From UHGV virus genome UHGV-0383422: DNA of 40,660 bases; one strand, given 5' to 3'. The notes beneath the pieces were generated by a model. The model was not told the DNA's origin, searched no databases, and saw nothing but the letters and a program-made list of their open reading frames with translations. Positions within the stretch are counted from its first letter, which is position 1. Every line of letters starts with the position of its first letter. Below are positions 1-38,108 of this stretch, in pieces. This stretch comes from a virus. A program made the translations under genes and the position numbers.

Positions 1-15
1 CAGAACTATTAAACG

Positions 16-1266
16 TTATTCCCCCGCCATCCACTTCTCAAACTTCGACGGGGAGAACGGAATCAGATCCGTATGCTCCCCGTCAATCCATGAATCAATC
101 ATATCGGCCCACTGCTGCAACATGTAGGCGCGCTGTCTGGCGTATTCCGCTTTGTTATATACGGCGCGCACACCTTTCTGCTCATGTGCCAGAGCCTTTT
201 CAATCCAGTCTGAAGGATAACCAGCCTCATGCAACAACGTACTGGCTGTACGGCGCATATCATGTACAGTGAAGTCCTGAATATGCTCACCATCTTCATT
301 TATTATTTTCACCGTTCTGTCGATCAGAGAGTTCAGCGCGGCATTAGATAATGGCTTCCGGAAATTGTAACGACCAGGAACCAGATATTCACTTCCACCA
401 GCGCACATCTGCAACCCGACCAATATATCCTGTGCCTGTTTAGGCAGGTAAATAACGTGCGCCCGGCTTCCCTTCATGCGGTCTGGAGGAATTGTCCATG
501 TCCATTTTTTAAAATCTATTTCATCCCACGTTGCATTGGTGAATTCGCCCTTACGAACCATAGTGATAAGCACCAGTTTTAAAGCCATTTTCATAGTGCC
601 CATAGCACCAATGGCATCCAGCGTGCGGAAGAACAGGCCAATTTCTTCTGGTGCCAGTGTTCGCTCTCGTGGTTTAAATATGGCGATAGACGAAGGTTTA
701 ATGTCAGCCGCAGGATTAAACAAACCATGACCACGGTCATTGGCGTGACGGTATACGCTACTGATGATCTCCCTGGCCTGCACTGCTGTTGCCCGGCCAC
801 CGCGTTCGACAATCCGGTCACACAAATCACGAACCATCGATGTGGTAATTTCAGCCATCATTTTATTGCCAAGAACCGGAAGTATGTCACGGTCGATCAC
901 CGCCTGTTTCATTGCGCGGGTACTGTCAGCCAGGATGACGTGTTTCATATAACTGTCGGTATGTACCGCAAACGTCTCGGCACCACGAATCTTTTTGATA
1001 CCGTCACGTTTAGCCGCAGCCGGTGACTGGCCTGCTTTAAGCAGCTTCTTTGCAGCAATCAGTTCTTCTCGCGCTTCTGCCAGGCTGATACCGTCACGCC
1101 CATACTGCCCGATTACCAGTGTTTCGCGGCGACCGTTGATACGGTAGTCATAGCGAAACGAGACCGTGCCTGACGTAAGCACAGCTACATACAGCCCGTC
1201 ACGATCGGAGACCTTGTACAGTTTGTCCTGCGGCTTGAGGTTTTTTAATTTTGTATCGGTAAGCAC
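16..1266 (-). CDS. int: tyrosine integrase (P4-like phage integrase family)
   Basis: 416-aa ORF; C-terminal HDMRRT (HxxR) and catalytic-Tyr region RAVYNKAEY typical of tyrosine recombinases; located at the phage end. Confidence 0.9.
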   Translation of the reverse strand: MLTDTKLKNLKPQDKLYKVSDRDGLYVAVLTSGTVSFRYDYRINGRRETLVIGQYGRDGISLAEAREELIAAKKLLKAGQSPAAAKRDGIKKIRGAETFAVHTDSYMKHVILADSTRAMKQAVIDRDILPVLGNKMMAEITTSMVRDLCDRIVERGGRATAVQAREIISSVYRHANDRGHGLFNPAADIKPSSIAIFKPRERTLAPEEIGLFFRTLDAIGAMGTMKMALKLVLITMVRKGEFTNATWDEIDFKKWTWTIPPDRMKGSRAHVIYLPKQAQDILVGLQMCAGGSEYLVPGRYNFRKPLSNAALNSLIDRTVKIINEDGEHIQDFTVHDMRRTASTLLHEAGYPSDWIEKALAHEQKGVRAVYNKAEYARQRAYMLQQWADMIDSWIDGEHTDLIPFSPSKFEKWMAGE

Positions 1267-1307
1267 AATTCACCCGTATAGAAACCATTTTCATGACGGT
1301 ATGAGAG

Positions 1308-1324
1308 TATACCTTTAAGGTAAT
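1308..1324. promoter_or_regulatory. operator-like palindrome TATACCT-TTA-AGGTAAT upstream of int
   Basis: Member of the dispersed ATTACCT-N3-AGGTAAT family; 42-58 bp upstream of the int start codon; flanked by 9-bp inverted repeat TGACGGTAT/ATACCGTCA (1294-1302, 1323-1331). Confidence 0.45.
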
Positions 1325-1373
1325 ACCGTCACCTGTACCGACGAAAAATATGGTGTATAGTGAATAGAAATGA

Positions 1374-1410
1374 ATACATAAAAACAAAAACCCTCTGTTT
1401 TTACAGAGGG
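1374..1410 (-). terminator. rho-independent terminator after the lysis cassette
   Basis: Stem CCCTCTG/CAGAGGG (1391-1397/1404-1410) followed on the minus strand by TTTTTGTTTTTAT. Confidence 0.7.
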
Positions 1411-1583
1411 TTAAATTAGTATCTGAATAGGAATGAGTTGCTATGAGTTAGCTGTTAATCATTCCCACTCAATTATTTACGATAACCATAACCAATTGAG
1501 TGATAACATTTTTCCAAATCTCAATTTTTCCCGTACCGTTTTATATACCGTCACCGGAAATCAGTACCATGAAAAATGCCATG

Positions 1584-2066
1584 CTATCTGGTCAAAGTGT
1601 CGTACTGTTTTTCGCAGACTCTTCCGGCTTCGGCTGCCCGGTCAGCATACTCTGCCAGTTGTCTGTTTCTCTCGAGAGATTTGCTGAGCACGTCGGCAAG
1701 CAAAACTCCGGTGTCTGCGGCTGACGACCCAGCGCCGACAATGGCGTTATACTGCCTGAGCTGCTCACGGATGGCAAAGAGTTGTTGCTGCAACCGGCCA
1801 GCGCTAGCGGCAGCATCAAGAGCATCATTGCGCGCCTGGTCGATCCTCTGCTGAGCTTCACGTTCATTGGTCACTTTCTCCTGTTCGTAGTACTGACGAA
1901 CTTTGTCTTCTTCGGCTTTGCGGTCTTCTTCCGCCTGAGCATACCCGGCATCGTACTGGCGACTGCCGTGTATATTCCAGGCAACCACTCCTGATATGAC
2001 CAGAACAGCAAGCACTGCCACGATAAGAAACTGTTTCCAGTATGCTTTTACGAATGCCCAGATCAT
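1584..2066 (-). CDS. inner-membrane spanin subunit (Rz-like)
   Basis: 160 aa; N-terminal transmembrane segment then charged coiled-coil-like region; last gene of lysis cassette; start overlaps endolysin stop. Confidence 0.75.
1592..1828 (-). CDS. outer-membrane lipoprotein spanin subunit (Rz1-like), embedded in Rz in another frame
   Basis: ORF fully inside Rz; N-terminus [14 protein letters not shown] has signal peptide and lipobox (LAGC); Pro-rich mature part; start Met chosen at the internal MM. Confidence 0.65.
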   Translation of the reverse strand: MMLLMLPLALAGCSNNSLPSVSSSGSITPLSALGRQPQTPEFCLPTCSANLSRETDNWQSMLTGQPKPEESAKNSTTL

Positions 2067-2692
2067 ACCGCCAGCACCTTACTGGCAGTGATGTACCGCG
2101 CTCGCCGGTCGTCGATGCCGTTCCGGCCACCATTGATAATCAGAGTTACACGTGCAATATCGCCGGTATACTTCATGCATCCTTTGCTGGCGAAGAACCA
2201 CGCCGCGCTACGAGCCGCATATTCGTCCTGCGCCAGCAGTTCAGGGCTCTCCAGCAGGTCAACCTTCAGACCGTTTCCGCAATCACGATAGTTATTCAAA
2301 CCGGTAATCTGGATAAGTCCGCGCCCTCGGTAATTCCAGCCATCACCAGGGGCATTGTTCCCCATGCGTTTGCTGTATACCAGATTTGCGATCGCGCGCT
2401 GGCGCTCAAGTGGCAATGGTGGTTCACCAGCACGGCGCCCCAGTGCATTAGCCTGCCCCTGAGTGAGACGCCCAGCCCGAACGAAGTTAGCCAGTCCGCT
2501 GACACTGTAGTTGAAATTCTCCTGCAACCTGGTGAAGCCCCCAGACTCATGCCCGACTTGAGCAATAAACATTGCCTGATCTTCTGCTTTGCTGATACCA
2601 AACTCTTTCATCGCAGAAGTTATATGCGAGAACCAGCGTGCGGCCAGTGCCTCGCTGATACCAGCAGCTCGCTGGAATTGTTTAATCTCCAT
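2063..2692 (-). CDS. endolysin, glycoside hydrolase family 19 (chitinase-like lysozyme)
   Basis: 209 aa from internal Met ([11 protein letters not shown]...) with GAGGT Shine-Dalgarno upstream; GH19-like motifs ([22 protein letters not shown]); the listed 264-aa version overlaps the upstream gene and is rejected. Confidence 0.8.
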
Positions 2693-2990
2693 GTTTAGAC
2701 CTCGATACTTTAAAAATTTGAACGACGTTACCGCGCGTTTTAATAACCGCAGCCAGCATGACAGCGTTGATAATGACCTCAGATAAATCCACAGCCATTG
2801 GCGTACGTAACCAGATTGCATAGGCGACTCGAACAGGAATACTGGCCGCAGCAACAATCAGGAAATAAGCAAGCCATCCTCCCCACCTTCGATGTTGAGA
2901 GCCGTTACGCCGGAATGTGACAACGCGAATTGCTATGCCAGTGCAAATAACTGCATTGGTGATAAGCAAAAAAAACTCATGCGTTACCAT
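2682..2990 (-). CDS. second holin-like / lysis-accessory membrane protein
   Basis: 102 aa with about three hydrophobic helices; sits between holin and endolysin with overlapping ends. Confidence 0.5.
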
Positions 2991-3381
2991 CGTCTTTTCT
3001 CCCCGGAATTAACTCGCGTGGATTATCGGAACGGTGATAGAGCCATATACCAATACGCACAGCGACAATTGCTGACACGAATGCGCCTGCAGAGAAAACA
3101 ATCCCTTTTTCAAAAGAGTCCTGCGTGATGGTAGGGATCAGGCTGGCTATGCCGATAAGAATTGATGCTGCTGGTTTGTAAAAGAGAAGGCCGCAAAGAA
3201 AGCTGAGCATCGACAGGAGCACCCGGCGACGGATGGGGTACTCTACTGCAGAGGTAACAAAAATTACCGCCCCAGCCAAAGCCCCTAAAGCAACCTCCGG
3301 AGGGGCACCTGCAATAACCGCAGCAAGAGAACTAAAACTAAGCAACTGATTTAATTGCTCACTTGTTACTTGAGCAGACAT
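2977..3381 (-). CDS. holin-like membrane protein
   Basis: 134 aa, multiple transmembrane segments, charged C-terminus; first gene of lysis cassette; AGGAGAAAGT Shine-Dalgarno upstream. Confidence 0.6.
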   Translation of the reverse strand: MSAQVTSEQLNQLLSFSSLAAVIAGAPPEVALGALAGAVIFVTSAVEYPIRRRVLLSMLSFLCGLLFYKPAASILIGIASLIPTITQDSFEKGIVFSAGAFVSAIVAVRIGIWLYHRSDNPRELIPGRKDDGNA

Positions 3382-3662
3382 ACTTTCTCCTGTTTACTAT
3401 CTATAAGCCAGTCAATTATTGATGACTAAACCCGCATAGTAAACCATATATGAATCATTATTGTTCCATATCATATATCTCAATAAAAGTACTAATGATT
3501 TTACAGAACGAGCCAGCAGAGTGGGGGCAGTTGTACAGGAACCATAGACTTAATTTTGTATTTAATAATGCTATGGTGTAATAAACCTGAACATGTATTT
3601 AAAATACGTACTGATTCATGATAGAATTCAAAGATAACTTTTCACAAACTCCGTTTTTGATA

Positions 3663-3689
3663 CCCGCAAAATATTGCGGGCTTTTTTTT
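3663..3689 (+). terminator. intrinsic-terminator-like hairpin oriented for plus-strand transcription, at the tailspike 3' end
   Basis: Stem CCCGCAA/TTGCGGG followed by eight T on the plus strand; on the minus strand the hairpin is preceded, not followed, by the T/A run. Confidence 0.45.
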
Positions 3690-6600
3690 AACGTTCTTCC
3701 AGAGACTGAATCCGCTCTTTTATCTTATCCATTTCTCTGCGCTGCCATGCTGCCTCGATATAGAATAAGAGATCAGGTCTGACCCCCCATCTAGATCCTG
3801 CTGGCGTTATTTCAACGCGCTCAATGATGTCTTCCATTACCATCACTGGATTATCATCCTCATCAACAATGATGCTCCCGTCATTATCAGTCAGCGGCAT
3901 TTCCCTTTGGCCAGTAATGACGTCATCATATACTGCGGGATAATCGTCATAGCAAAGAAAGGCATAGCGGCATGTTGTGCTTTCTTCTTCCATGAGTCCG
4001 TGAGAAATAAGAACATCACGAAGTTGCTGCGCGATTACACCATGATGTATCCTCGCCCCTTCTTCCCCCTTTATAGCGACAGCGTTCAGCCATTTATAAG
4101 CGATATACCTGACGTCACCCCAGGCATCCAGCAATGCTTCGTCAGGAGAGACCGGCTCTGTCTTTAATGTTCCGTCACTGGTAACCACAGGATTGGAGCC
4201 AAGATAAACTGTCGAGAACCTGTTTCCCGGACCACCAAGAGCATTTACATTATCAAGATAAGGTTTAACATCTCCGTTCTCAAAAAGATGTTCGAGTGCG
4301 TTATATACCGCGCGACGTGGAGTACTGCTTCCGGAACCATGCAACGTTATCATTGCACCATCTGCTGAAGACGTTGTTTCACCGCCGCTAACGATTAATC
4401 TCTGAGCGGTAACATCATCAGACGGTACTTTCTTCGCAATAATGGCGTAATTACCCTCAAGTTTGACTTCCGCGCGAACTTGTCCTGATGTACCTGCATG
4501 GACAGTCAGTGACTGGACGGCAACATCATCTGTGAAATCAACGGGTACAGGAACCGTCCTCACGCCTGACGTCGACATAAAAGTAGGAAGCGTTCTGTTA
4601 GGAGTGGCTCCGTAGACAAAATCCCTTGAAACAAATTCTTCCTGTTTAATTTTCACCCTGAAACAATACAAATCAGCCGGGTGACCATCGTGAACATAAG
4701 GATATTTTCTGTTGTTATCCCCTATGCTCCATGGGTTTAGAAAGTCTTCCCCACCGAAAATGTAGTACAGCCAGTTGTCTTTGATACAAACTGAACCAAC
4801 ACCAACTGCAGAGTTAACTATTCCGCCCTGATAAATCTGATCAGTAACATTAACCCACTCTACATTATCCAGACTCCACTCATTGACGTTAACTCTGGTC
4901 ATAAATGTTCTTGGATAATTTCCTGCATAACGGTTATCAGGTTCTCCTCCTTCCCACTCACCAAATGCGCGCTCACTGCCAAAAATAATCAGCTCATCGC
5001 CAACTTTGGCAAAAGGAAGGTTTGAGTGATGAACATTATTTGGGAAGCGAAGAGAATTCCATGATGTACCTAAATCAGAGCTTCTGTGCAATGAACTACC
5101 GGGTTGAGTACTTAATGTCCCCCTGGTCGTCAGATACAGAATGCCATCATAATATTTTACACATGGCTCAGATGCATTCGCCTCATATTCTGCAGGTATG
5201 CGTCTGCGAACAAAGCTACCAGGAGAACCGAAAGCATCAGAGAAATAGAGTATCCCAAGCTCGCGTGGACCAATATCACCATTATGGTAGCCAACAGCAA
5301 AACTGTTATCGCTAATCGTCGCAAAACTGTGAATCTCAGTAACAGGAGTGCTTCCGTCAACAAAAGAAGGAATAGTTCCAAGACTGGTTTTTCTCCATGG
5401 TGACGAGTGAAATGATGTACCAAAACTCCAGTATCTACCCTCGTTATTCTGATCCACATCCTGGGTATTTTGCGTCGTAACTGTAAAAGTATTTTTATCA
5501 ATAACAGTAGTCACCGTCATATTCCCGGTAACACCTGTAACACCAGAGTTTGAGAAGTTGACAAAATCACCAGCAAATAATCCGTGATCAGTAATGCGAA
5601 TATAAGCGACTTGCTGATTTGCTGCTTTCGTTATACCACCATAAGCGCGAAGGCTGCGACTCATTGGGCGATCCCACAACTCTGCAACCTGCAGTTTATT
5701 TCCGCTCACGGTCCGCGTCTCAATTACAGCAAAAAGGCGATTTCTGACAACCCCCATACTCATGCAGTGATAGTTAACTGTGGGATAGTTTTCATGTAAA
5801 TCTGTAAGCCATTCCGGCGTTGTCCAGGTCTTCCCGTCATCTCCTGAGCGAACCCATGCAACATGGAGGTTATTTACACCATGGCGGTCTCCAGCCATAA
5901 AAGGCGCATAGATGACATTGTCATATACAAACGTTTTATCCTGCGTCCAGGCGTTGTACCACGGTGTATCTGTAATTTTAAATAACTCTCCCTGGATAAA
6001 ATCTTCAGAAGCATAAAAAAGAGGCTGGCCCGGTATTCTCTCAAATAAAAAACGAGCATTTTTAAATCGACTGACATCCGGAAGAGTTGATACTTTAAAA
6101 GTAAGCCCTAATCCGTCAATTTTATAACCTGGAGATGAGGCTTCAAGGCACGCGCTTATTGCAGTGGAATCGTCATTTATACCATCACCAACAGCTCCAA
6201 AATCTTTGGGGCTAATAGCATCACGCATTTTATCCTGGAACGTTCGGTACACAGCCCCAGAACCATACTGAATAAACCAACCAAAACCACCAACAACCCC
6301 GGCGATTGCAGCATCGACATAATTACGCATTGAGCGATTATTTACAGCGTCCTGCTCAAATGATGGATCTGCAAGGTTAGAAATTTTGTTTTGCTTTGCA
6401 TCGTAATATTTTGCAAGCAAAGATGGTTTCATCAATGCACGTCTGAACCACCCAAAACATTGCTGGATCAGCATCGTCAGGTAGTCAAAGGCATCTTCAT
6501 GCACTTCGGGGAAAAATTTTCCCTGATTGCGAAGGTCTGTCTCCTGCACTACATCAAGCACACGATCTATCGTAATTCGCCATCCAGTAGCAAGCGGAGA

Positions 6601-6807
6601 CGGAAGAACCACAGAACCGCCACTATAAGTGCCCGCCCCAGTTACCGTATAACCGGTATCCAGAACCAATTCTGTTACGTTTCCGTTCAGGTCAGACACC
6701 TGAACAACCAGGTCTGATTTTCTGAAAATTCGAAAAGTATACGGAAACGATGTCGTAACGCCGTTACCAGTGTATTCGTTGTGGTCAACTTCGGTTGAGA
6801 CCGTCAT
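3688..6807 (-). CDS. tailspike, endosialidase-like (endo-N-acetylneuraminidase) with C-terminal intramolecular chaperone domain
   Basis: 1039 aa; N-terminal particle-binding-like domain; sialidase Asp-boxes (SGDDGKTW, SSDLGTSW); C-terminal region (LGSNPVVTSDG...RIHHGVIAQQLRD...) resembles self-cleaving chaperone domains of endosialidase tailspikes (recollection, not searched). Confidence 0.8.
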   Translation of the reverse strand: MTVSTEVDHNEYTGNGVTTSFPYTFRIFRKSDLVVQVSDLNGNVTELVLDTGYTVTGAGTYSGGSVVLPSPLATGWRITIDRVLDVVQETDLRNQGKFFPEVHEDAFDYLTMLIQQCFGWFRRALMKPSLLAKYYDAKQNKISNLADPSFEQDAVNNRSMRNYVDAAIAGVVGGFGWFIQYGSGAVYRTFQDKMRDAISPKDFGAVGDGINDDSTAISACLEASSPGYKIDGLGLTFKVSTLPDVSRFKNARFLFERIPGQPLFYASEDFIQGELFKITDTPWYNAWTQDKTFVYDNVIYAPFMAGDRHGVNNLHVAWVRSGDDGKTWTTPEWLTDLHENYPTVNYHCMSMGVVRNRLFAVIETRTVSGNKLQVAELWDRPMSRSLRAYGGITKAANQQVAYIRITDHGLFAGDFVNFSNSGVTGVTGNMTVTTVIDKNTFTVTTQNTQDVDQNNEGRYWSFGTSFHSSPWRKTSLGTIPSFVDGSTPVTEIHSFATISDNSFAVGYHNGDIGPRELGILYFSDAFGSPGSFVRRRIPAEYEANASEPCVKYYDGILYLTTRGTLSTQPGSSLHRSSDLGTSWNSLRFPNNVHHSNLPFAKVGDELIIFGSERAFGEWEGGEPDNRYAGNYPRTFMTRVNVNEWSLDNVEWVNVTDQIYQGGIVNSAVGVGSVCIKDNWLYYIFGGEDFLNPWSIGDNNRKYPYVHDGHPADLYCFRVKIKQEEFVSRDFVYGATPNRTLPTFMSTSGVRTVPVPVDFTDDVAVQSLTVHAGTSGQVRAEVKLEGNYAIIAKKVPSDDVTAQRLIVSGGETTSSADGAMITLHGSGSSTPRRAVYNALEHLFENGDVKPYLDNVNALGGPGNRFSTVYLGSNPVVTSDGTLKTEPVSPDEALLDAWGDVRYIAYKWLNAVAIKGEEGARIHHGVIAQQLRDVLISHGLMEEESTTCRYAFLCYDDYPAVYDDVITGQREMPLTDNDGSIIVDEDDNPVMVMEDIIERVEITPAGSRWGVRPDLLFYIEAAWQRREMDKIKERIQSLEER

Positions 6808-6910
6808 GTTAAATCTCCAGATAGTCGCAGCACCCGTTGCGCCGCATATCTGGTTATTCTATTACCTGGAAAACCACATATGGATAGAAAGGCTGTAAAT
6901 ACGAATAGAT

Positions 6911-6927
6911 ATTACCTTTCAGGTAAT
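6911..6927. promoter_or_regulatory. operator-like palindrome ATTACCT-TTC-AGGTAAT (perfect 7-3-7)
   Basis: In the divergent intergenic region between tailspike and the LexA-controlled gene. Confidence 0.5.
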
Positions 6928-6963
6928 TTGCAAAACGTGCTGGATAGCAAACAAATTATTTGA

Positions 6964-6983
6964 TACTGTATAAATATACAGTT
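6964..6983 (+). promoter_or_regulatory. LexA (SOS) box TACTGTATAAATATACAGTT
   Basis: Perfect CTGT-N8-ACAG (6966-6981) with AT-rich spacer, about 20 bp upstream of the start codon at 7003; -35-like TTGATA at 6960-6965. Confidence 0.8.
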
Positions 6984-7002
6984 ATTGCATGGAGAAGATA
7001 AG

Positions 7003-7260
7003 ATGCAGCAGTATCACTATCCACTGGAAGACGGATTTACCGAAAGGATTCACACGCCGGGAGGCGTCAGGTCACTGGTGGAGGGATCGCACTTGATGAA
7101 ATTACTCCGGGATCTCGATAAGGATGGATTTAATGTCGATGGCCCACTTGCCGAACTGACTGCACTGATTAACTACGTCACCAGCTCACAGATGTCTATG
7201 CAGGATCTGCAAACACATCTCGACTATTGTGCCGAACAATTACGAAAACAAACCCGGTAA
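7003..7260 (+). CDS. small SOS-controlled antirepressor-like protein
   Basis: 85 aa from ATG at 7003 with GGAGA Shine-Dalgarno; LexA box upstream; clearly homologous to the C-terminal approx 80 aa of the Bro-N protein at 8409-9119. Confidence 0.7.
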   Translation: MQQYHYPLEDGFTERIHTPGGVRSLVEGSHLMKLLRDLDKDGFNVDGPLAELTALINYVTSSQMSMQDLQTHLDYCAEQLRKQTR

Positions 7261-7266
7261 ATTTAA

Positions 7267-7284
7267 AGGCCGCAAGAGCGGCCT
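7267..7284. terminator. hairpin between convergent genes (possible bidirectional terminator)
   Basis: Stem AGGCCGC/GCGGCCT with AAGA loop; T-rich flanks on both sides. Confidence 0.45.
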
Positions 7285-8011
7285 ATCGTTTCGCTTTGTG
7301 CTCGTCCCAGCACGTTTTGCACCATGCCATTAAGCCGTCCGCATTTTGATTATTAGGGTAAAAGCTGGTCCGTTTTCTGCGGACATTACAAATTGGGCAC
7401 CACTTCATATGGCGTGTATTCTTTGGGCCATCGAGACACCTTGCACACCACTTAGTCAATCCATCTGGATTTTTTGACGATTTCCGGAATTTGTCATATG
7501 GAAGGTTTATTCTGCATCGCAAACACTGCTTGCGGCCACTTGAAACTCTGTTAGCTGATTCTTCTTTTGGCGGCGATACAGAAGGTATTCTTGCTGGCTC
7601 TGATACTGCCTGAGGTGCTTTTTTAGATGACTGAGACGATATGTCATCACCAGGGAATCTTCCATGATATGCCGGACGCATTGATACTCCAGGTGGAAGC
7701 TCAGCTGTAAACGGCTTTGGCTGAATCAGTTGCCTCTCTTTTGCTAACTCCTGCTGTTTACAATATGTCTGGATTACCGCACTATCATAAGCAGGAGGTG
7801 CGGAAATATTAGGCGCATTACCTCCAGTTTTTTGAAACTGAGTAGAGGTGTGTTCTATCACCTGTGTACGATTAATCGTTATCTCCCCATCTTCGGTCTT
7901 TATCGTTTTGTTATGATTAACGACCGTACGATCAGAGATCTTAGTCTTGTTCTGGTTGATAACGTAAATAATCACCGCAACCACACCAACAACTATCCAG
8001 AAAACTTCCAT
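7283..8011 (-). CDS. membrane-anchored protein with C-terminal tandem Cys4 zinc-ribbon repeats (function unknown)
   Basis: 242 aa; N-terminal transmembrane helix; two approx 30-aa repeats each CxxC...DGL..WC..C; GAGGAA Shine-Dalgarno. Confidence 0.65.
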   Translation of the reverse strand: MEVFWIVVGVVAVIIYVINQNKTKISDRTVVNHNKTIKTEDGEITINRTQVIEHTSTQFQKTGGNAPNISAPPAYDSAVIQTYCKQQELAKERQLIQPKPFTAELPPGVSMRPAYHGRFPGDDISSQSSKKAPQAVSEPARIPSVSPPKEESANRVSSGRKQCLRCRINLPYDKFRKSSKNPDGLTKWCARCLDGPKNTRHMKWCPICNVRRKRTSFYPNNQNADGLMAWCKTCWDEHKAKR

Positions 8012-8030
8012 TGCTTTTCCTCACAATAAC

Positions 8031-8047
8031 ATTACCTTAAAGGTAAT
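8031..8047. promoter_or_regulatory. operator-like palindrome ATTACCT-TAA-AGGTAAT (perfect)
   Basis: 20-36 bp upstream of the start codon of the 7283-8011 gene; a weaker copy ATTACCT-TTG-CGGTAAA lies at 8124-8140. Confidence 0.5.
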
Positions 8048-8408
8048 ATCTTGCTTTCAGGTGATCAAGCGTTAAACGCCACCAACCAAATACGGTTGAT
8101 TTTGATATTTCTCCGCGTTTATCATTACCTTTGCGGTAAATTTACATCGCACTCCTCTTGTGCCATAGTAATCGGGCACTGGCAAAATCCAGTGCCGGGA
8201 TTGGCGTCCCGGGTTACTAAGTGGCGCATACCACGCCAGACGTGGTTTTTTTATGCGTTAAGCACAGCTATATCCGAATTATGGTGGGCTGGGCAGGGGT
8301 CCGAAAGGACGCCGGTACCACTTAGGCCGGTACGCCAACCTTGTCCAGTTCACCACCAGTAATTGGCGTTGCGGTGGTGATTAAAATCACTAAGTGGAGA
8401 TAACCACC

Positions 8409-9190: not shown

Positions 9191-9207
9191 ATTACCTTAA
9201 AGGTAAA
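9191..9207. promoter_or_regulatory. operator-like palindrome ATTACCT-TAA-AGGTAAA
   Basis: Immediately upstream of the GGAGG Shine-Dalgarno and ATG (9219) of the 55-aa gene. Confidence 0.5.
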
Positions 9208-9218
9208 GGAGGCGCGAT

Positions 9219-9386
9219 ATGACAGCGTTGAAAAATCGTACTCAGCACAATGAACAAGCCAAGCAATGCTGGGATGTCATTGGAAAAGTTATGCTTGGCC
9301 GCGCAAGCAAAGAGCGCGACAAGGATATGGTTTACCAGACAGGAACATCTTTCAGCGACTTCAAGGCGGCATTTCGCTCCAAATAG
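9219..9386 (+). CDS. hypothetical small protein (55 aa)
   Basis: ATG with strong AAAGGAGG Shine-Dalgarno; hydrophilic; not in the supplied track (below 60 aa); overlaps the N-terminal extension of listed ORF 9266-9847, which I reject. Confidence 0.55.
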   Translation: MTALKNRTQHNEQAKQCWDVIGKVMLGRASKERDKDMVYQTGTSFSDFKAAFRSK

Positions 9387-9406
9387 AAGCACATCAGGAG
9401 TTTTCC

Positions 9407-9847
9407 TTGAAGTTTAACATTAGAATATCTAATAGTTTTCTACATGGGGAAAGCAACACCCCTTTCGCTGTAGACGGACCTTTCCTTACTGATGATGAAA
9501 TAAAAATCATACAAAGTTTTTTAGAGGATGTTGCCAATGGAAGGGCGCTTGTTGGAAAAAACAAGCCCTCGTGGGTTGATGATAACCATGATAAAATTCC
9601 CGGCTCAGACAATTATGAGCAAGAGAATTATTGGCATTATCATTGTGGGCCAACATGGTATCCAAACACATTTAAGAATTATACCATTAACTTAAATTTC
9701 AACCCTGGCGGAAGGCATTCTAATGAATGCATTCATTATGCAAAAAATGATAATGAAATTGTCATTGTTGGATTTTCAAGAGAACACATACCTTTCCTTT
9801 CATCAGATGGAAACAACAATCCGCTTTTTAATGATGAAGAAGAATAG
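9407..9847 (+). CDS. hypothetical protein, AT-rich accessory gene (about 146 aa)
   Basis: Same frame as listed ORF 9266-9847, but start placed at in-frame TTG 9407 six nt after AGGAG; no in-frame ATG in the AT-rich part; sharp drop in GC from about 9400; terminator follows. Confidence 0.5.
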   Translation: MKFNIRISNSFLHGESNTPFAVDGPFLTDDEIKIIQSFLEDVANGRALVGKNKPSWVDDNHDKIPGSDNYEQENYWHYHCGPTWYPNTFKNYTINLNFNPGGRHSNECIHYAKNDNEIVIVGFSREHIPFLSSDGNNNPLFNDEEE

Positions 9848-24382: not shown

Positions 24383-26058
24383 TGTGATTGCCCACCCTGA
24401 CCACTAACTGCATTCGCCATAGCTGACAAAACACTCGGATCCGAAGTTTTAGCTTCGCTTAGCGTCTTGGCACCCTGTGCCGCCGCCATCCCCATCGCCA
24501 TCATTTGTTGCTGCTGTTGTTGCTGTGCCCGTTGCTGGCGAGCCTGCTCAACCTGTTCCTGCGGAACAATGACGGTTGGAGACACTCCGGACATATCAGC
24601 GAATGCATCGATCGCCTGATCAACGTTGAGTTTGTCGAGAGCTTCTGGTTTCGCTTGCGCAAGTTGACCAATGAAGTTAACCGTGGACGCCAGACTGGAC
24701 AGGCCGATAGACTTCTGCGCCTGAGCCATGACGGAAATGTATTCGACCTTCAGGGGCATGCCTTCCATCGCGTCAGGCGGTGTCGGCAGCATGTTTTTAC
24801 GCACCATCATCGAGAAAGCGCGGTCAATGAGAGGATTAAGACATTCGTCGTTCAGACGCTCCAGAACCGGCCCCAACATCAGAAGTTTTTCTTCTTTCAT
24901 TTCGATCACCGCTTCAACAGGCATCGAGCGGGTATTGATGTTCTGCAACATCATGAACAGATCGACAAAGTAGGCGCTGTTAATGATTTGACGGGTGTCC
25001 TGAATGTCTGCCACCAAATCTGCTGTACTGGGGTTAACCAGATAAGCAGGCCTGAAACCATCCTGACCAGTAATCTGATCGATATACGTGATGTCGCCAG
25101 GAAGAAGGGAGGCACGCTGATTCTTGAGGGAAGTCGGAGCAACCATCGGCGGATTGGTGGCTTTATCAATCAACTGCGACTTGCGCTTCTGGAGAAGCTG
25201 CAATGCCTTAACAGGTCCAAGCGCCAGCATACCCGGGCATGATGATCCATAAACATCTTCGCCGTTAACTTCCCAGCGCGGAGCCATAATTGGAAACTCA
25301 TCGAATCCGGACTCACGCAACAACTTGTCGTTATCGCCACCAACCTCGTAATAAACCGATTTGAATGGCTTGTTCTTGCTATCCAGCTTCGATGTATCGC
25401 GGTCAATGTTCGGGTAAACCGAATGCATCACTTCAATCCACTTCTCGTAGGTGCCGCTTTCCCACATGCTTTTTACGGATTCGCTGACGTTATTTAGCCC
25501 GAACTCCTGAACAAGCTGACGAACAGTCATAGAGAACTTGCGAAAACAGGTGTCCACACTGCCACGAGGTGAGTTAGCCAGGTAGTAACTGCCTATCGGG
25601 AATGGCATTGTGCGAATGATGTCCTCGTCATCCTCCAGCACCGCCATTGCACCAGTGCTGTATGTGCCGAGGCTTCCGTATAACTGCGGAAGAGACTGGT
25701 AGAGATTCGACTTATTGAACATATCGTTCATGCGGTTCTGAACTGCCTCAAGCCACAACTTAACAGGGCCATAGTCCATCATTTCAGGATCTGGCGTAGC
25801 CAGGCGAAACCACGGACGGGCGGGGCTTGTTATGCCTGACATCATGCCGCTGGCAAGAGTGCGCGCCGCCATAGTCCCGGTCGAATCAATAATGCGTGTA
25901 TTGCGTCGATCGTTACGGTTAACCTCAGAAGTCAGAAAGCGGGAACCACGCGGGTTGATGTAATCACTCAACTCGCGCCAGTGCGGCTCGAACGACTGAC
26001 GCTCGCTTTCAAGTTGTGCGAACTGTTTGTTCAATCGCTCTTTAGTTGTTTCCGCCAT
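24379..26058 (-). CDS. portal protein
   Basis: 559 aa; poly-Gln/Ala C-terminal tail; position next to terminase and scaffold. Confidence 0.8.
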   Translation of the reverse strand: MAETTKERLNKQFAQLESERQSFEPHWRELSDYINPRGSRFLTSEVNRNDRRNTRIIDSTGTMAARTLASGMMSGITSPARPWFRLATPDPEMMDYGPVKLWLEAVQNRMNDMFNKSNLYQSLPQLYGSLGTYSTGAMAVLEDDEDIIRTMPFPIGSYYLANSPRGSVDTCFRKFSMTVRQLVQEFGLNNVSESVKSMWESGTYEKWIEVMHSVYPNIDRDTSKLDSKNKPFKSVYYEVGGDNDKLLRESGFDEFPIMAPRWEVNGEDVYGSSCPGMLALGPVKALQLLQKRKSQLIDKATNPPMVAPTSLKNQRASLLPGDITYIDQITGQDGFRPAYLVNPSTADLVADIQDTRQIINSAYFVDLFMMLQNINTRSMPVEAVIEMKEEKLLMLGPVLERLNDECLNPLIDRAFSMMVRKNMLPTPPDAMEGMPLKVEYISVMAQAQKSIGLSSLASTVNFIGQLAQAKPEALDKLNVDQAIDAFADMSGVSPTVIVPQEQVEQARQQRAQQQQQQQMMAMGMAAAQGAKTLSEAKTSDPSVLSAMANAVSGQGGQSQ

Positions 26059-26706: not shown

Positions 26707-26783
26707 GTGGCATTAGCTCAGTTGGACAGAGCAACCGCCTTCTAAGCGGTTGGTCGCAGGTTCGAATCCTGCATGCCACGCCA
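26707..26783 (+). tRNA. tRNA-Arg (anticodon UCU)
   Basis: Folded by hand: acceptor GTGGCAT/ATGCCAC, D-arm GCTC/GAGC, anticodon stem ACCGC/GCGGT with loop CTTCTAA (anticodon TCT), T-arm GCAGG-TTCGAAT-CCTGC, discriminator G and CCA. Confidence 0.9.
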
Positions 26784-26983: not shown

Positions 26984-27316
26984 ATGAAAGAGAAGACTGC
27001 AGCTGAGCGCTATGCCGCAGCTATCAATGCCGCGATGGCGATTGTAAACCTGCGTGAAGAGATTAAAGATCTCCTTGCAATTATCCATAACAACCTGACA
27101 TGTACAGAGTTGCTTGGCGGTCAGTACAACGGTGAGGCGGTGAAGGAGGCATTTAAAAATGCCGAGGTAGGAATAATTCCAGCAAACTATGTCAAGGCTG
27201 AATGTGTGCTCCTAAAGGCACGAGTGAGTCTGCATGAAGATCCTGGTAATCTCGGTCGAACTGCAATGCGTTACGTGATAGACGAGTCGAATGCCAAACA
27301 CAATCTACCGAAATAA
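26984..27316 (+). CDS. hypothetical protein (110 aa), accessory gene
   Basis: ATG at 26984 with AAGGTGA Shine-Dalgarno; convergent with large terminase; palindrome copy just after the stop. Confidence 0.55.
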   Translation: MKEKTAAERYAAAINAAMAIVNLREEIKDLLAIIHNNLTCTELLGGQYNGEAVKEAFKNAEVGIIPANYVKAECVLLKARVSLHEDPGNLGRTAMRYVIDESNAKHNLPK

Positions 27317-29597: not shown

Positions 29598-29941
29598 ACT
29601 ATTAATTTCGTTTCATGCCAGCCTTTAGTCACCCAGCATTGCGAGTCACCATTACACGGGCATGAATTAACTGGAACTCTCTCGCCGCACTTACCGCAAC
29701 ATTTTCTGCTGATCGATTTTATACGCCCGCGCACGCGTGCATCATCCTGGCGGATCAGTAACGCGATGTACTCGGCCATTTCATAGGGATCGCGACCAGG
29801 GCGCCGGGCGGCGCAGTTCCGCGCCAGCATTTCCTGCTCCTGCTTATCCAGCACCAGTTCAATTTTGCGCTCACCGGCGGCGGACTGCCGAGCGCGCTGC
29901 GCGGCTTTGCGTTCTGCGGGGGATTTAGCCACGAATCGCAC
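29594..29941 (-). CDS. hypothetical protein with Cys-rich C-terminus (start uncertain)
   Basis: Listed ORF starts at GTG; internal ATG (MLARN...) has AGGAG Shine-Dalgarno; C-terminus CCGKCGERVPVNSCPCNGDSQCW; GC-rich segment. Confidence 0.4.
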   Translation of the reverse strand: MRFVAKSPAERKAAQRARQSAAGERKIELVLDKQEQEMLARNCAARRPGRDPYEMAEYIALLIRQDDARVRGRIKSISRKCCGKCGERVPVNSCPCNGDSQCWVTKGWHETKLIV

Positions 29942-30047
29942 TCCACGCCAGATTGATTAATGACTCCCAGGTAATATAAACCCGGATACCAGCAGCCAGG
30001 CCGAAACCAATCACCATGGCATAAAGCAGAGCGTTGCACTTGTTCAT
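29925..30047 (-). CDS. small membrane peptide (40 aa)
   Basis: MNKCNALLYAMVIGFGLAAGIRVYITWESLINLAWSAIRG; AGGAGGTGA Shine-Dalgarno; ATG overlaps upstream stop. Confidence 0.45.
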   Translation of the reverse strand: MNKCNALLYAMVIGFGLAAGIRVYITWESLINLAWSAIRG

Positions 30048-30829
30048 CACTTCACCTCCTGCGGCGGTTCTGGTAGCGGCATCCAGAACAAGGCGTTCCC
30101 TAACCACGATAAAGTGCCGTCGCTCAACTCCACGTATTCCCCTTGTACCTGTCCTGCCATATACTCGCCGTGCTTTGAATAAATTAAAATCCAATCATCT
30201 TGAGGGGGCATTCGCTCACTACAGCTTATCCAACCATCCGGAGTCACCGGAAGCGAGAACGGCAGCACATCTCTGTGAACAAGTTTTTGCTGTGACAGGT
30301 TATCCAGAACTTTCTGTACTGCTGCATCACCGAATACACCAAGCGCATCTGCCATAACTCCTACAACCTGATAAGCCTCAGCGCATACCGTGGATAAACC
30401 ATCCGGAATTACCGGAGAGTTGCCGGGTTCTTTAATGTGCAAGCGAGGCTCACCATCTTTTGGCTCAGGCCACTGGCGCTCCATGTTGATCTTCAATTTA
30501 TCTTCCATAGCAACGGTAATTTCAGCATCGCTGATGCCAGCACGGCGCTGTGCATCCCACAACAGAAACTGCATATCAGCCCACTCGCTAAGATCGTCTG
30601 GTTCGGCTGCGGCTTCCAGTGCCTCTTTTGAGAGGTGTTTCAGTGGACCAATGGGGCCAACGCAGCCAAATGTGGAGTCAGACCATTTGGCATGCTCGTG
30701 GCGAATCTGTTCGCGTTCCAGTGATGCCAGTGCAATTCGTGCTAGTTCCATTTGTTCGCCACGAGTAAGCCCGTTTTCAAGCGGATTTTTAATGAACAAT
30801 TCAATACGTTCTTTGGTAATAGTGGTCAT
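30047..30829 (-). CDS. hypothetical protein (nin-region type)
   Basis: 260 aa; early-operon position; no motif recognised with confidence. Confidence 0.5.
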   Translation of the reverse strand: MTTITKERIELFIKNPLENGLTRGEQMELARIALASLEREQIRHEHAKWSDSTFGCVGPIGPLKHLSKEALEAAAEPDDLSEWADMQFLLWDAQRRAGISDAEITVAMEDKLKINMERQWPEPKDGEPRLHIKEPGNSPVIPDGLSTVCAEAYQVVGVMADALGVFGDAAVQKVLDNLSQQKLVHRDVLPFSLPVTPDGWISCSERMPPQDDWILIYSKHGEYMAGQVQGEYVELSDGTLSWLGNALFWMPLPEPPQEVK

Positions 30830-30839
30830 GTGTTACTCC

Positions 30840-31103
30840 TTAACCCGCAGTGCTTTCAACTGATGAGGGGAACAAAATCTTTTCATCAAACCCTGCATTC
30901 ATATCATTGACAGCAACACACCAATCCATTGACGAACGATTATCAAGAGCCTCCATGATTTCATCCATGCGGCGCAGGTCATACAGGTAAATGCTTTTAT
31001 CGCCAATGGTGTAAAAACCAATTTTTTTCGGTGATGGGCAGCGATCAAGAACGTCCTGTAATTCGCTCAACCATGCTTGTTCTTTTTTTGTCAAAGTTGC
31101 CAT
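30840..31103 (-). CDS. hypothetical protein
   Basis: 87 aa; start lies directly after the conserved junction repeat. Confidence 0.5.
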   Translation of the reverse strand: MATLTKKEQAWLSELQDVLDRCPSPKKIGFYTIGDKSIYLYDLRRMDEIMEALDNRSSMDWCVAVNDMNAGFDEKILFPSSVESTAG

Positions 31104-31104
31104 A

Positions 31105-31596
31105 TCACTCTCCTTTGATGCGAATGCCAGTGGTACTCATTCTCCTGATTTCCCAGAGCACACGAGGAACACCACCGTTTCCGACCGGATCGCGTTTACT
31201 CCGCAGGGCGACGCTTGATTCCGCCCAGCTTTTTCTTGGAGGAAGCTCTTTCACACGAACAAAACCAGCTGCGCGGAGAGATGCTCCTGATTCATCTGCC
31301 TGGGTGTACGTAATACAACGTTGATAACCCATAGCCTTTGCTGCCCGCCAGACAGCACCATAAAGCGCGCTGTTAGCGTTGCGTTCTCCTGTGGTACATG
31401 TGCGATTTACTTCAAGCGTTAATCCATCGTCCAAATGTCGTGCAACAGGTCTACCGGCTGTCGCCACACCTATCAATTCTCCGGCATCATTTCTCAGACC
31501 AATGCTGAATTTATGCCCCACCGGGGGTTTATTGTGTCGGTGATGTCTGGATATAAACGCCTTCGCAACACGAAGAGTAACCGGTGAAATTTGCAT
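31105..31596 (-). CDS. hypothetical protein with His/Arg-rich N-terminus; ends GIRIKGE
   Basis: Start set at ATG 31596 with GGAGAG Shine-Dalgarno (listed ORF begins at GTG); C-terminal heptapeptide shared with the upstream gene. Confidence 0.5.
   Translation of the reverse strand: MQISPVTLRVAKAFISRHHRHNKPPVGHKFSIGLRNDAGELIGVATAGRPVARHLDDGLTLEVNRTCTTGERNANSALYGAVWRAAKAMGYQRCITYTQADESGASLRAAGFVRVKELPPRKSWAESSVALRSKRDPVGNGGVPRVLWEIRRMSTTGIRIKGE
31106..31130. repeat. 25-bp direct repeat (junction copy 1) CACTCTCCTTTGATGCGAATGCCAG
   Basis: Identical 25-mer at 31600-31624; encodes C-terminal GIRIKGE plus stop plus Shine-Dalgarno of next gene. Confidence 0.7.
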
Positions 31597-31598
31597 TC

Positions 31599-32285
31599 TC
31601 ACTCTCCTTTGATGCGAATGCCAGCGGCACGGGAATCATTCCATCGCTTTACTTCTTCACGAATTACGTCAATGCATTCTTTCGAATCCATTAGGTAATC
31701 TTCATCAAAAAGCCTTTCCTGTTCGTTTTCTATCGCAACAATGATTGCTTCAACTAACTTTTGTGCCTGAGAACCACTTTCTAACTCTGCAATGCGCTTC
31801 TCTGCGGCTTCCAGCTTCTCGCGCATATCGTCAACGTACTCGACCAGAGATCCGCCAGCAGGAATTTCGCACTCCTCGACCAGTTGGAAGTAGATATCAG
31901 CTGCGGCCCGTGTGTTGCTATGCCTAGCGTCGCCCATCTCACCTTCACGAAGAGCATCGCGTTCGGCGGTAAGATTGGCTATTTTGCTGTCTTTGCCTTC
32001 CAGCTCAACGCGAAGCCTCCCAACCGTAAGCGCAATATCCTCGTTCTCCTGGTCGCGGCGTTTGATGTATTGCAGGTTTCTTTCCCGTTCATCCAGCAGC
32101 GTCAGCACGGTTTCTGGTCCGGTCAGAAATTTGAAGGCGTTGAGCGCATCAATATCCACACCATAATCTTTAAGTTCCTGTTCACTTAACAAATCATCAT
32201 CAGCTGGCAACATTAACAGGCGTTCCATTGCTGGAATTGCACGTTCTGCCGCCTCACGCAGTGCCTGATAGTTAATTTTGGTCAT
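31599..32285 (-). CDS. Ea22-like early protein
   Basis: 228 aa, acidic coiled-coil-like; C-terminal GIRIKGE; prophage early-region position. Confidence 0.55.
   Translation of the reverse strand: MTKINYQALREAAERAIPAMERLLMLPADDDLLSEQELKDYGVDIDALNAFKFLTGPETVLTLLDERERNLQYIKRRDQENEDIALTVGRLRVELEGKDSKIANLTAERDALREGEMGDARHSNTRAAADIYFQLVEECEIPAGGSLVEYVDDMREKLEAAEKRIAELESGSQAQKLVEAIIVAIENEQERLFDEDYLMDSKECIDVIREEVKRWNDSRAAGIRIKGE
31600..31624. repeat. 25-bp direct repeat (junction copy 2)
   Basis: Identical to 31106-31130. Confidence 0.7.
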
Positions 32286-32286
32286 A

Positions 32287-32586
32287 TCACATCACCCTGA
32301 AGCCGTTGCATTTACGTAAAAAATCGCAGATATAGCCCTTCATTTTTTCGTGCCAATCTCGATCATTCCCATTGCACCAACCATCAGGTGGAGTCCAGTT
32401 TTCTATCAGAGCAGCCATTTTCTTTGCTTTCGCCGGAGTAGCTGTTGCGGTATCGCAGTAATGACGAGTGTCAACCAACGTATCCATACCATCGATATCA
32501 AGTACGCAAAACCATGTGTGATTCGGCATTTCAACAGATGGTATTTGTTGCCCGCGTCGACGTTTATCAATAAGACATACAGTCAC
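32287..32586 (-). CDS. hypothetical protein
   Basis: 99 aa; coupled in early operon. Confidence 0.45.
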   Translation of the reverse strand: MTVCLIDKRRRGQQIPSVEMPNHTWFCVLDIDGMDTLVDTRHYCDTATATPAKAKKMAALIENWTPPDGWCNGNDRDWHEKMKGYICDFLRKCNGFRVM

Positions 32587-38099: not shown

Positions 38100-38108
38100 G
38101 GAGAAAAA

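What the first reader, a model, noticed from the sequence alone, without database searches (positions are those of the whole stretch)
3688..6807. Chimeric tailspike: endosialidase-like catalytic body with two Asp-boxes and a C-terminal self-cleaving chaperone domain
The 1039-aa tailspike has a generic particle-binding N-terminal domain, two sialidase Asp-box motifs (SGDDGKTW, SSDLGTSW) and a C-terminal region that, from memory, closely resembles the intramolecular chaperone domain of K1-capsule endosialidases. This points to a polysialic acid (K1-type) capsule receptor and so to an encapsulated Enterobacteriaceae host. A depolymerase on a temperate phage is of practical interest.
Basis: partly seen in the sequence, partly recalled or inferred. 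Interest (0 to 1): 0.5.

Follow-up and report, generated by a model that had tools for sequence, protein, structure and literature searches.

The report
Known K1-capsule endosialidase tailspike gene

Summary
It has two Asp-boxes: SGDDGKTW at aa 321-328 and SSDLGTSW at aa 576-583.

The interpretation also holds. All four endosialidase Pfam domains match, plus Peptidase_S74. Residues 205-876 align end to end with the solved K1F endosialidase, and 757-1038 with its C-terminal chaperone domain. The endoNF active-site residues and the Ser877/Lys882 self-cleavage dyad are conserved.

The gene is a mosaic:
- nt 1-578 are about 98% identical to other Uetakevirus tailspike N-termini.
- nt 579-698 are an orphan hinge.
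- nt 699-3077 are 99.6% identical to the endosialidase of the P22-like prophage CUS-3.
- The last 43 nt and about 280 nt downstream are again orphan.

It is not new. The exact protein is in NCBI on 190 contigs. A 99.8% identical gene sits in 72 complete E. coli genomes, including K1 strains such as APEC O1. It is also ORF7 of phage vB_EcoP_ZX5, which was isolated on an O87:H52:K1 host; the 2022 paper on that phage describes a comparable three-domain layout. The joint mapping and the co-residence with CUS-3 are small additions. Low interest.

The parts
3688..6807 (-). Complete tailspike CDS: 1039 aa plus stop, 115.6 kDa precursor
   Evidence: ORF list and translation. Same CDS length as annotated in phage ZX5 and APEC O1. 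Exact protein is in NCBI. Mass.
6815..6818 (-). GGAG ribosome-binding site, 7 nt upstream of the ATG
   Evidence: Read directly from the sequence.
6230..6807 (-). Mosaic segment 1 (gene nt 1-578, aa 1-193): Uetakevirus (epsilon15/phiV10-type) phage-binding N-terminal domain
   Evidence: 10 mismatches in 579 nt against phage EC.W1-9. 97% identity to EC.W1-9 and phiv142-3, and 70-74% to the phiV10 and epsilon15 tailspike 5' ends. PHROG tail families match at their N-termini. PDB 28lx/8ck1 matches aa 1-209 at E 9.6e-36.
6110..6229 (-). Mosaic segment 2 (gene nt 579-698, about aa 194-233): orphan hinge carrying the DFGAVGDGxxDD motif at the start of the endosialidase N-terminal extension
   Evidence: Dense mismatches to both EC.W1-9 and CUS-3. 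At most 58% aa identity to any of 22 compared homologues. The motif is shared with pectate-lyase-type Uetakevirus tailspikes.
3731..6109 (-). Mosaic segment 3 (gene nt 699-3077, aa 234-1026): block 99.6% identical to the CUS-3 siaK1 endosialidase
   Evidence: 9 mismatches in 2379 nt against CUS-3 of RS218. BLASTP alignment. megablast.
5995..6195 (-). Endosialidase N-terminal extension (aa 205-271)
   Evidence: Pfam PF12218, E 5.9e-32.
4645..5994 (-). Six-bladed beta-propeller catalytic domain (aa 272-721) with H309, R515, E547, R562 and R613
   Evidence: Pfam PF12217, E 1.2e-233, full-length model. Alignment to 1v0e/3gvl. Residues. Their role is described in PMC12632334.
5824..5847 (-). Asp-box 1, SGDDGKTW (aa 321-328)
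   Evidence: Aligns with endoNF SGDDGQTW.
5413..5661 (-). Beta-barrel domain inserted in the propeller (aa 383-465)
   Evidence: Pfam PF12195, E 7.9e-46.
5059..5082 (-). Asp-box 2, SSDLGTSW (aa 576-583)
   Evidence: Aligns with endoNF SRDIGQTW.
4180..4644 (-). Stalk / tailspike domain (aa 722-876); the mature protein ends at Thr876
   Evidence: Pfam PF12219, E 8.5e-78. The endoNF crystal constructs end at the aligned ...SNPIVT.
3691..4179 (-). C-terminal intramolecular chaperone / Peptidase S74 domain (aa 877-1039, 18.7 kDa) with the Ser877 / Lys882 dyad (SDGTLK)
   Evidence: Pfam PF13884. PDB 3gw6 E 1.3e-93. Residues. Mass. The S-D-x-x-x-K pattern of ICA domains is described in PMC3742443.
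3407..3730 (-). Mosaic segment 4: last 43 nt of the gene plus about 280 nt of non-coding DNA, orphan. Homology to other Uetakeviruses resumes at about 3406.
   Evidence: Local blastn. A phage-collection search finds only ZX5-type records. Mismatch list.
3663..3680 (.). GC-rich hairpin CCCGCAAAATATTGCGGG, 7 nt after the stop codon; terminator-like
   Evidence: The T-run is on the + strand side, so its function for the minus-strand gene is inferred only.

Best explanation
The gene encodes the homotrimeric tailspike of a temperate phiV10/epsilon15-like podovirus (genus Uetakevirus) that infects E. coli K1.

Proposed mechanism:
- Residues 1-193 form the slender phage-binding domain that fixes the spike to the tail.
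- A short hinge (about aa 194-233) leads into a GH58 endo-alpha-2,8-sialidase. This comprises an N-terminal extension, a six-bladed beta-propeller with two Asp-boxes and the active site (H309, R515, E547, R562, R613), an inserted beta-barrel, and a stalk.
- Residues 877-1039 are an intramolecular chaperone. It drives trimerisation and folding of the stalk, then cuts itself off at Ser877 using a Ser-Lys dyad. The result is a 97-kDa mature subunit.
- On the virion the enzyme binds and depolymerises the polysialic acid capsule, which lets the phage reach the outer membrane.

The gene arose by module exchange. A Uetakevirus N-terminal domain is joined, at the conserved DFGAxGDG..DD motif, to an endosialidase cassette. 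The central 2.38 kb of that cassette is nearly identical to the endosialidase of the P22-like prophage CUS-3.

Shown here: homology, conserved residues, mosaic boundaries, distribution. Inferred: enzymatic activity, autoproteolysis, receptor use.
For: - Domains: PF12218, PF12217 (E 1e-233), PF12195, PF12219 and PF13884, in the canonical order.
- Structures: aa 205-876 match the endoNF structures 1v0e/3gvl at E=0. The phi92 endosialidase 4hiz matches at E 1e-271. The endoNF chaperone domain 3gw6 matches at E 1e-93.
- Active site: the endoNF residues H350, R549, E581, R596 and R647 named in PMC12632334 align to H309, R515, E547, R562 and R613. The R613 column coincides with the Arg-to-Ala substitution in PDB 3gvj.
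- Cleavage site: the endoNF crystal constructs end at the residue aligned with Thr876. Ser877 and Lys882 are in place.
- Reference enzyme: the body is 99.6% identical in nt to CUS-3 siaK1. The GenBank record for siaK1 cites direct-assay evidence of endo-alpha-sialidase activity, PMID 16689790.
- N-terminal domain: about 98% identical in nt to EC.W1-9 over the first 578 nt, 97% to EC.W1-9 and phiv142-3 over about 596 nt, and 70-74% to phiV10 and epsilon15. The epsilon15 gp20 N-terminus is the phage-binding domain.
- Genome: it is phiV10-like with an integrase.
- Host: phage ZX5, with a 99.8% identical gene, plaques on an O87:H52:K1 host and lysogenises it.
- Distribution: full-length copies occur in 72 complete E. 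coli genomes, including O1:K1:H7 strains and cerebrospinal-fluid isolates.
Against: - No biochemical assay exists for this exact protein; the ZX5 paper only annotated the domains.
- One residue I recall as part of the endoNF stalk polysialic-acid binding site (Q853) is Met819 here and in CUS-3. Binding at that site may therefore differ from K1F.
- The hairpin after the stop codon is not a textbook terminator in the direction of the gene.
- The direction of the exchange cannot be decided from these data: CUS-3 to Uetakevirus, the reverse, or both from a third source.
Confidence: 0.93

Rival explanations
1. The protein binds polysialic acid but is catalytically dead or has a shifted specificity (for example alpha-2,9 or alternating alpha-2,8/2,9 K92-type polymer, or only O-acetylated polysialic acid). 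It would then act as an adhesin rather than a K1 depolymerase.
For: Endosialidases with altered linkage preference exist; the phi92 enzyme 4hiz is a homologue. The stalk-site residue equivalent to endoNF Q853 is Met here.
Against: All five active-site residues are conserved. The body differs from the assayed CUS-3 enzyme by 4 aa in aa 234-876 (5 in aa 234-1026). The carrier genomes listed include K1 strains, and the ZX5 host is K1.
Confidence: 0.04
2. The gene is a decaying remnant in a defective prophage and no longer makes a functional virion protein.
For: Many prophage tailspike genes in E. coli are truncated. The protein search returned many partial CUS-3-type entries.
Against: The ORF is intact at 1039 aa, with only 1-2 aa differences from the APEC O1 and ZX5 copies. 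ZX5 is a viable, plaque-forming, lysogenising phage. The window has the excised phage arrangement with a full structural module.
Confidence: 0.02
3. The similarity to CUS-3 reflects continuing gene conversion between co-resident prophages in one chromosome, rather than a single past exchange.
For: APEC O1, APEC O18, EC69 and F11 carry both prophages 169-186 kb apart.
Against: In APEC O1 the two co-resident copies still differ at 9 of 2379 sites. Seven sites are fixed between the Uetakevirus copies (window, ZX5, APEC O1) and the CUS-3 copies (RS218, APEC O1).
Confidence: 0.1

Closest known systems
ORF7 (QTH80017.1) of Escherichia phage vB_EcoP_ZX5 (MW722083; Pathogens 2022, PMC9782041) and RefSeq WP_000218907.1 of the E. 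coli APEC O1 prophage
   Same: Same gene: 6 nt / 2 aa differences from ZX5 and 1 aa from APEC O1. Same Uetakevirus backbone; window 1-7260 is 99.4% identical to ZX5. A three-domain architecture is already stated in the paper.
   Different: Essentially nothing in the gene itself. This window carries an extra 0.86-kb insert upstream (7261-8124) and differs in parts of the early region.
CUS-3 endosialidase tailspike siaK1 (ABQ88383.1; P22-like Lederbergvirus prophage of E. coli K1 RS218)
   Same: The catalytic body, stalk and most of the chaperone domain (aa 234-1026) are 99.6% identical in nt. Both are temperate K1 phages.
   Different: CUS-3 has a P22-type head-binding domain (PF09008) instead of the epsilon15-type one. 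The hinge and the last 13 aa differ. CUS-3 carries the neuO O-acetyltransferase downstream, with AAGACTC repeats; these repeats are absent from the window.
EndoNF, the endosialidase of phage K1F (PDB 1v0e, 3gvl, 3gw6)
   Same: Same domain order, active-site residues, Asp-boxes and Ser/Lys cleavage site.
   Different: About 65% aa identity in the body and about 52% in the chaperone domain, measured against the K1F-like homologue P0017. K1F has a T7-type N-terminal adaptor and is a lytic phage. There is a 7-aa insertion here (FVDGSTP, aa 481-487) relative to endoNF.
Tailspikes of other Uetakeviruses (epsilon15 gp20, phiV10, phiv142-3, EC.W1-9)
   Same: [quoted passage not shown]
   Different: Their bodies are beta-helix O-antigen- or capsule-specific enzymes (pectate-lyase-like), not a sialidase propeller.

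Membership tests
GH58 phage endosialidase (endo-N-acetylneuraminidase) | Six-bladed beta-propeller catalytic domain | tested here: met
   PF12217 matched over its whole length (1-367/367), E 1.2e-233. E=0 to 1v0e/3gvl.
GH58 phage endosialidase (endo-N-acetylneuraminidase) | Active-site residues equivalent to endoNF H350, R549, E581, R596 and R647 | tested here: met
   H309, R515, E547, R562 and R613 in aligned columns. Residue list from PMC12632334.
GH58 phage endosialidase (endo-N-acetylneuraminidase) | Two Asp-box motifs in the propeller | tested here: met
   aa 321-328 and 576-583. 0 of 20,000 shuffles gave two matches.
GH58 phage endosialidase (endo-N-acetylneuraminidase) | Beta-barrel domain inserted in the propeller, followed by the stalk domain | tested here: met
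   PF12195 at aa 383-465 and PF12219 at aa 722-876.
GH58 phage endosialidase (endo-N-acetylneuraminidase) | Stalk polysialic-acid binding site (endoNF R837, S848, Q853; residue list from my memory of the endoNF structure papers) | tested here: inconclusive
   R803 and S814 are conserved, but Q853 corresponds to M819. The same is true of CUS-3.
GH58 phage endosialidase (endo-N-acetylneuraminidase) | Hydrolysis of alpha-2,8-polysialic acid | not testable with these tools
   Only indirect evidence: the 99.6% identical CUS-3 body is annotated with direct-assay evidence.
Peptidase S74 / C-terminal intramolecular chaperone (ICA) domain | Homology to the chaperone domain immediately after the stalk | tested here: met
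   PF13884 at aa 877-937, E 1.7e-10. 3gw6 E 1.3e-93, plus other S74-bearing spikes 9vvr, 7y5s, 3gud and 6eu4.
Peptidase S74 / C-terminal intramolecular chaperone (ICA) domain | Nucleophile Ser and general-base Lys five residues later (S-D-x-x-x-K) at the cleavage site | tested here: met
   S877-D-G-T-L-K882. The endoNF crystal constructs end at the residue aligned with T876. The pattern is cited for ICA domains in PMC3742443.
Peptidase S74 / C-terminal intramolecular chaperone (ICA) domain | Actual autoproteolytic release of the domain | not testable with these tools
   Needs SDS-PAGE of the expressed protein. Predicted fragments are 97.0 and 18.7 kDa.
Uetakevirus (epsilon15/phiV10-like) tailspike | N-terminal phage-binding domain homologous to epsilon15 gp20 / phiV10 | tested here: met
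   70-74% nt identity to the phiV10 and epsilon15 tailspike 5' ends and 97% to phiv142-3. PHROG tail families match at positions 1-200.
Uetakevirus (epsilon15/phiV10-like) tailspike | Located in a Uetakevirus genome at the tailspike slot | tested here: met
   The first 25 kb of the window is 96-98% identical to HEMP4, phiV10 and phiv142-3 over about 75% of its length. Gene order is the same as in ZX5.
Phage T7 tail-fibre N-terminal domain (label used in the ZX5 paper) | Pfam PF03906 above its gathering threshold | tested here: not met
   Only 16.1 bits against a cut-off of 25.2, E 0.0092, over aa 135-161.

The most novel reading that the evidence does not exclude
The orphan flanks are the hinge (nt 579-698) and the last 43 nt plus about 280 nt downstream. 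They may be relics of an older, unsampled endosialidase cassette that first entered the Uetakevirus lineage. Its central 2.38 kb would later have been overwritten by homologous exchange with a CUS-3-type prophage inside a doubly lysogenic K1 strain, or the reverse, with this phage as the donor to CUS-3. That would make these K1 ExPEC lineages a documented case of receptor-binding-module exchange between co-resident prophages of different podovirus genera.
Probability: 0.35. Interest if true: 0.3.

Novelty: already known. Interest (0 to 1): 0.12.

Why it matters
It matters little beyond correct annotation. The gene identifies the window as a K1-capsule-specific temperate Uetakevirus. It is one more example of tailspike module swapping, a principle established for K1 phages in 2006 (reviewed in PMC5380687). 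The enzyme body is nearly identical to the characterised CUS-3 endosialidase, so it offers no new depolymerase. As a temperate phage it is also a poor therapy candidate. The modest additions are the exact joints, at the DFGAxGDG..DD motif and in the last helix of the chaperone domain, and the finding that several ExPEC/APEC K1 genomes carry two endosialidase prophages.

Tried and rejected
- **Plus-strand reading** of 3688-6807: full of stops, so the gene is on the minus strand.
- **neuO-like phase-variable O-acetyltransferase**, as found downstream of the CUS-3 spike: no AAGACTC repeats anywhere in the window. The 306-bp downstream gap is non-coding.
- **Source of the orphan 3' flank**: local blastn against CUS-3, phiv142-3 and EC.W1-9 found nothing. 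A distant-mode search of the phage collection found only ZX5-type records.
- **Source of the orphan hinge**: at most 58% aa identity to any of 22 diverse homologues. I did not search the metagenome or genome collections for it.
- **T7-tail-fibre label for the N-terminus**: sub-threshold in Pfam.
- **Ongoing gene conversion with co-resident CUS-3**: rejected for APEC O1, where 9 differences are retained and 7 are lineage-fixed.
- **Structure prediction and fold search**: not run. Residues 205-1038 already align to solved structures at E=0 to 1e-93, so they would add nothing.
- **Two paper-search calls** failed on term length.
Full report
**Observation**

Window 3688-6807 holds one long ORF. It lies on the minus strand; the plus-strand reading is broken by many stops. 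The product is 1039 aa. A GGAG ribosome-binding site at 6815-6818 precedes the ATG at 6807.

The strict Asp-box pattern S.D.G..W occurs exactly twice: SGDDGKTW at aa 321-328 and SSDLGTSW at aa 576-583. In 20,000 shuffles of the protein, none gave two matches and 177 gave one. The motifs are therefore not chance. Both fall in the columns of the two endoNF Asp-boxes in the alignment to PDB 1v0e.

**What it is**

Pfam gives the complete endosialidase architecture in canonical order:
- End_N_terminal, aa 205-271, E 6e-32
- End_beta_propel, aa 272-721, E 1e-233, full model length
- End_beta_barrel, aa 383-465, inserted in the propeller
- End_tail_spike, aa 722-876, E 9e-78
- Peptidase_S74, aa 877-937, E 2e-10

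Against solved structures:
- aa 205-876 align end to end with the K1F endosialidase (1v0e, 3gvl; E=0)
- the phi92 endosialidase 4hiz matches at E 1e-271
- aa 757-1038 match the endoNF C-terminal chaperone domain 3gw6 at E 1e-93
- aa 1-209 match the N-terminus of depolymerase tailspikes 28lx/8ck1 at E 1e-35

**Functional residues**

I mapped chain positions of 1v0e to endoNF numbering as chain index + 244. This places the last residue of the construct at 910. It also places the Arg-to-Ala change of mutant 3gvj at R647.

The endoNF active-site residues H350, R549, E581, R596 and R647 are named in PMC12632334. They correspond to H309, R515, E547, R562 and R613 here, all conserved.

The endoNF crystal constructs end at ...SNPIVT, aligned with ...SNPVVT876. 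The next residues, S877-D-G-T-L-K882, supply the serine and lysine spaced as in other ICA/S74 domains (S-D-x-x-x-K; PMC3742443). Predicted products are a 97.0-kDa mature subunit and an 18.7-kDa released chaperone.

One caveat comes from my memory of the endoNF papers. Of the stalk binding-site residues R837, S848 and Q853, the first two are conserved, but Q853 is Met819 here and in CUS-3.

**Mechanism (inferred from the family)**

- The chaperone domain nucleates trimerisation and folding of the stalk, then removes itself.
- The N-terminal domain attaches the trimer to the tail.
- The propeller cleaves alpha-2,8-polysialic acid, so the phage can tunnel through the K1 capsule.

Homology and conserved residues are shown here. 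Enzymatic activity, processing and receptor use are inferred.

**Chimera and joints**

Base-by-base comparison shows four segments:

| Gene nt | Window | aa | Relationship |
|---|---|---|---|
| 1-578 | 6230-6807 | 1-193 | About 98% identical to the tailspike 5' ends of Uetakeviruses EC.W1-9 and phiv142-3; 70-74% to phiV10 and epsilon15 |
| 579-698 | 6110-6229 | about 194-233 | Diverges from every comparator; at most 58% aa identity to 22 homologues |
| 699-3077 | 3731-6109 | 234-1026 | 99.6% identical to siaK1 of CUS-3 (9 mismatches in 2379 nt) |
| 3078-3120 plus about 280 nt downstream | 3407-3730 | last 13 aa and non-coding | Matches neither CUS-3 nor other Uetakeviruses |

Further points on each segment:
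- Segment 1: in epsilon15 this N-terminal region is the flexible phage-binding domain (bioRxiv 10.64898/2026.07.31.742079).
- Segment 2: it still encodes the DFGAVGDGxxDD motif. That motif opens both the endosialidase N-terminal extension and the pectate-lyase-type bodies of sister tailspikes. It is a plausible shared crossover site.
- Segment 3: CUS-3 is a P22-like K1 prophage. Its GenBank record cites direct-assay evidence for endo-alpha-sialidase activity.
- Segment 4: backbone homology resumes about 25 nt before the holin-like gene. In the phage collection this DNA is found only in ZX5-type records.

The same CUS-3-type body (97-98% aa) also occurs fused to a PF18668 N-terminal domain and a K1F-type chaperone in about 46-kb contigs (P0002-P0013). 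This catalytic block has therefore spread across several phage backbones.

**Context**

The window is a phiV10/epsilon15-like Uetakevirus genome. It has an integrase at 16-1266, a lysis cassette, an anti-repressor and large virion proteins.

Window 1-7260 is 99.4% identical to phage vB_EcoP_ZX5. The integrase lies next to the Rz-like gene, which is the excised arrangement. In the APEC O1 prophage a host gene, yfgI, follows Rz.

No neuO-type heptanucleotide repeat is present.

**Is it known?**

Yes.
- The exact 1039-aa sequence is in NCBI (for example CAM2748419.1) on 190 contigs. It is named [quoted passage not shown].
- Full-length copies at 99.8% or higher identity occur in 72 of 5,426 complete E. 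coli genomes. These include APEC O1, APEC O18, O1:K1:H7 strains and cerebrospinal-fluid isolates.
- The gene is ORF7 of phage vB_EcoP_ZX5 (6 nt, 2 aa differences). The published description states that it has an N-terminal tail-fibre domain, a central endosialidase and the C-terminal intramolecular chaperone. The phage was isolated on an O87:H52:K1 host (PMC9782041).
- Modular exchange of endosialidase bodies between P22-like, T7-like and SP6-like K1 phages is textbook material (PMC5380687).

**Small additions from this work**

- The mapped joints described above.
- The ZX5 paper's T7-tail-fibre label for the N-terminus is below the Pfam threshold: 16 bits against a cut-off of 25. The domain is better described as the epsilon15-type phage-binding domain.
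- At least four complete genomes (APEC O1, APEC O18, EC69, F11) carry both a CUS-3-like prophage (tailspike plus acetyltransferase at tRNA-Arg) and this Uetakevirus prophage, 169-186 kb apart.
- In APEC O1 the two copies still differ at 9 of 2379 shared sites, and seven sites are fixed between the two lineages. The exchange was therefore a single, fairly recent event, not continuing homogenisation.

**Verdict**

Novelty is nil: the gene is already known. Interest is low (0.12). The only open question is the evolutionary origin of the orphan flanks and the direction of the exchange with CUS-3.

Noticed in passing
window 7261-8124 (ORF 7283-8011, minus strand): An 0.86-kb segment absent from phage ZX5 and from the APEC O1 prophage. 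It carries a 242-aa ORF of PHROG 6762 (unknown function). Its C-terminus matches zinc-ribbon regions of endonuclease VII, HNH and Lar-like restriction-alleviation families. It looks like a moron inserted just upstream of the tailspike region.
   Followed up: partly
window 26707-26783 (+): A phage-borne tRNA-Arg (anticodon TCT). A tRNA-Arg is annotated at the corresponding place in the APEC O1 prophage.
   Followed up: no
window 3663-3680: A GC-rich hairpin (CCCGCAAAATATTGCGGG) 7 nt after the tailspike stop. Its T-run is on the plus-strand side and an A-run is on the gene side. It may be a bidirectional or opposite-sense terminator.
   Followed up: no
window 3407-3687: About 280 nt of AT-rich non-coding DNA between the tailspike and the holin-like gene. 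It has no match outside ZX5-type phages. Sister Uetakeviruses carry small ORFs in this slot instead.
   Followed up: partly
window 1267-1583, and L006 (APEC O1) 25239-25435: The window has the integrase directly beside the Rz-like gene, which is the excised, attP-intact arrangement. In APEC O1 the host gene yfgI follows Rz, so the attachment site lies in this gap.
   Followed up: no
L007 (APEC O1 2570223-2575642) versus L006 20001-23120: APEC O1 carries two endosialidase prophages: a CUS-3-like one at tRNA-Arg (integrase, acetyltransferase, 981-aa tailspike) and the Uetakevirus one 169 kb away. The same holds for APEC O18, EC69 and F11.
   Followed up: yes
proteins P0002-P0013 (contigs of about 45-48 kb): A third architecture: a PF18668 N-terminal domain, the CUS-3-type catalytic body (97-98% aa) and a K1F-type chaperone domain (about 51% to this one). 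This points to a second recombination joint at the stalk/chaperone boundary.
   Followed up: partly
proteins P0089 and P0093: These Uetakevirus-type tailspikes have the endosialidase N-terminal-extension domain (PF12218) but no sialidase propeller. That small domain therefore travels independently of the catalytic body.
   Followed up: no
window 9207-9834, 26992-27311, 29932-33030, 37204-39127: Early-region and other segments with no megablast match to ZX5 or, where covered, to APEC O1. This is the usual mosaicism of the non-structural half of the genome.
   Followed up: no
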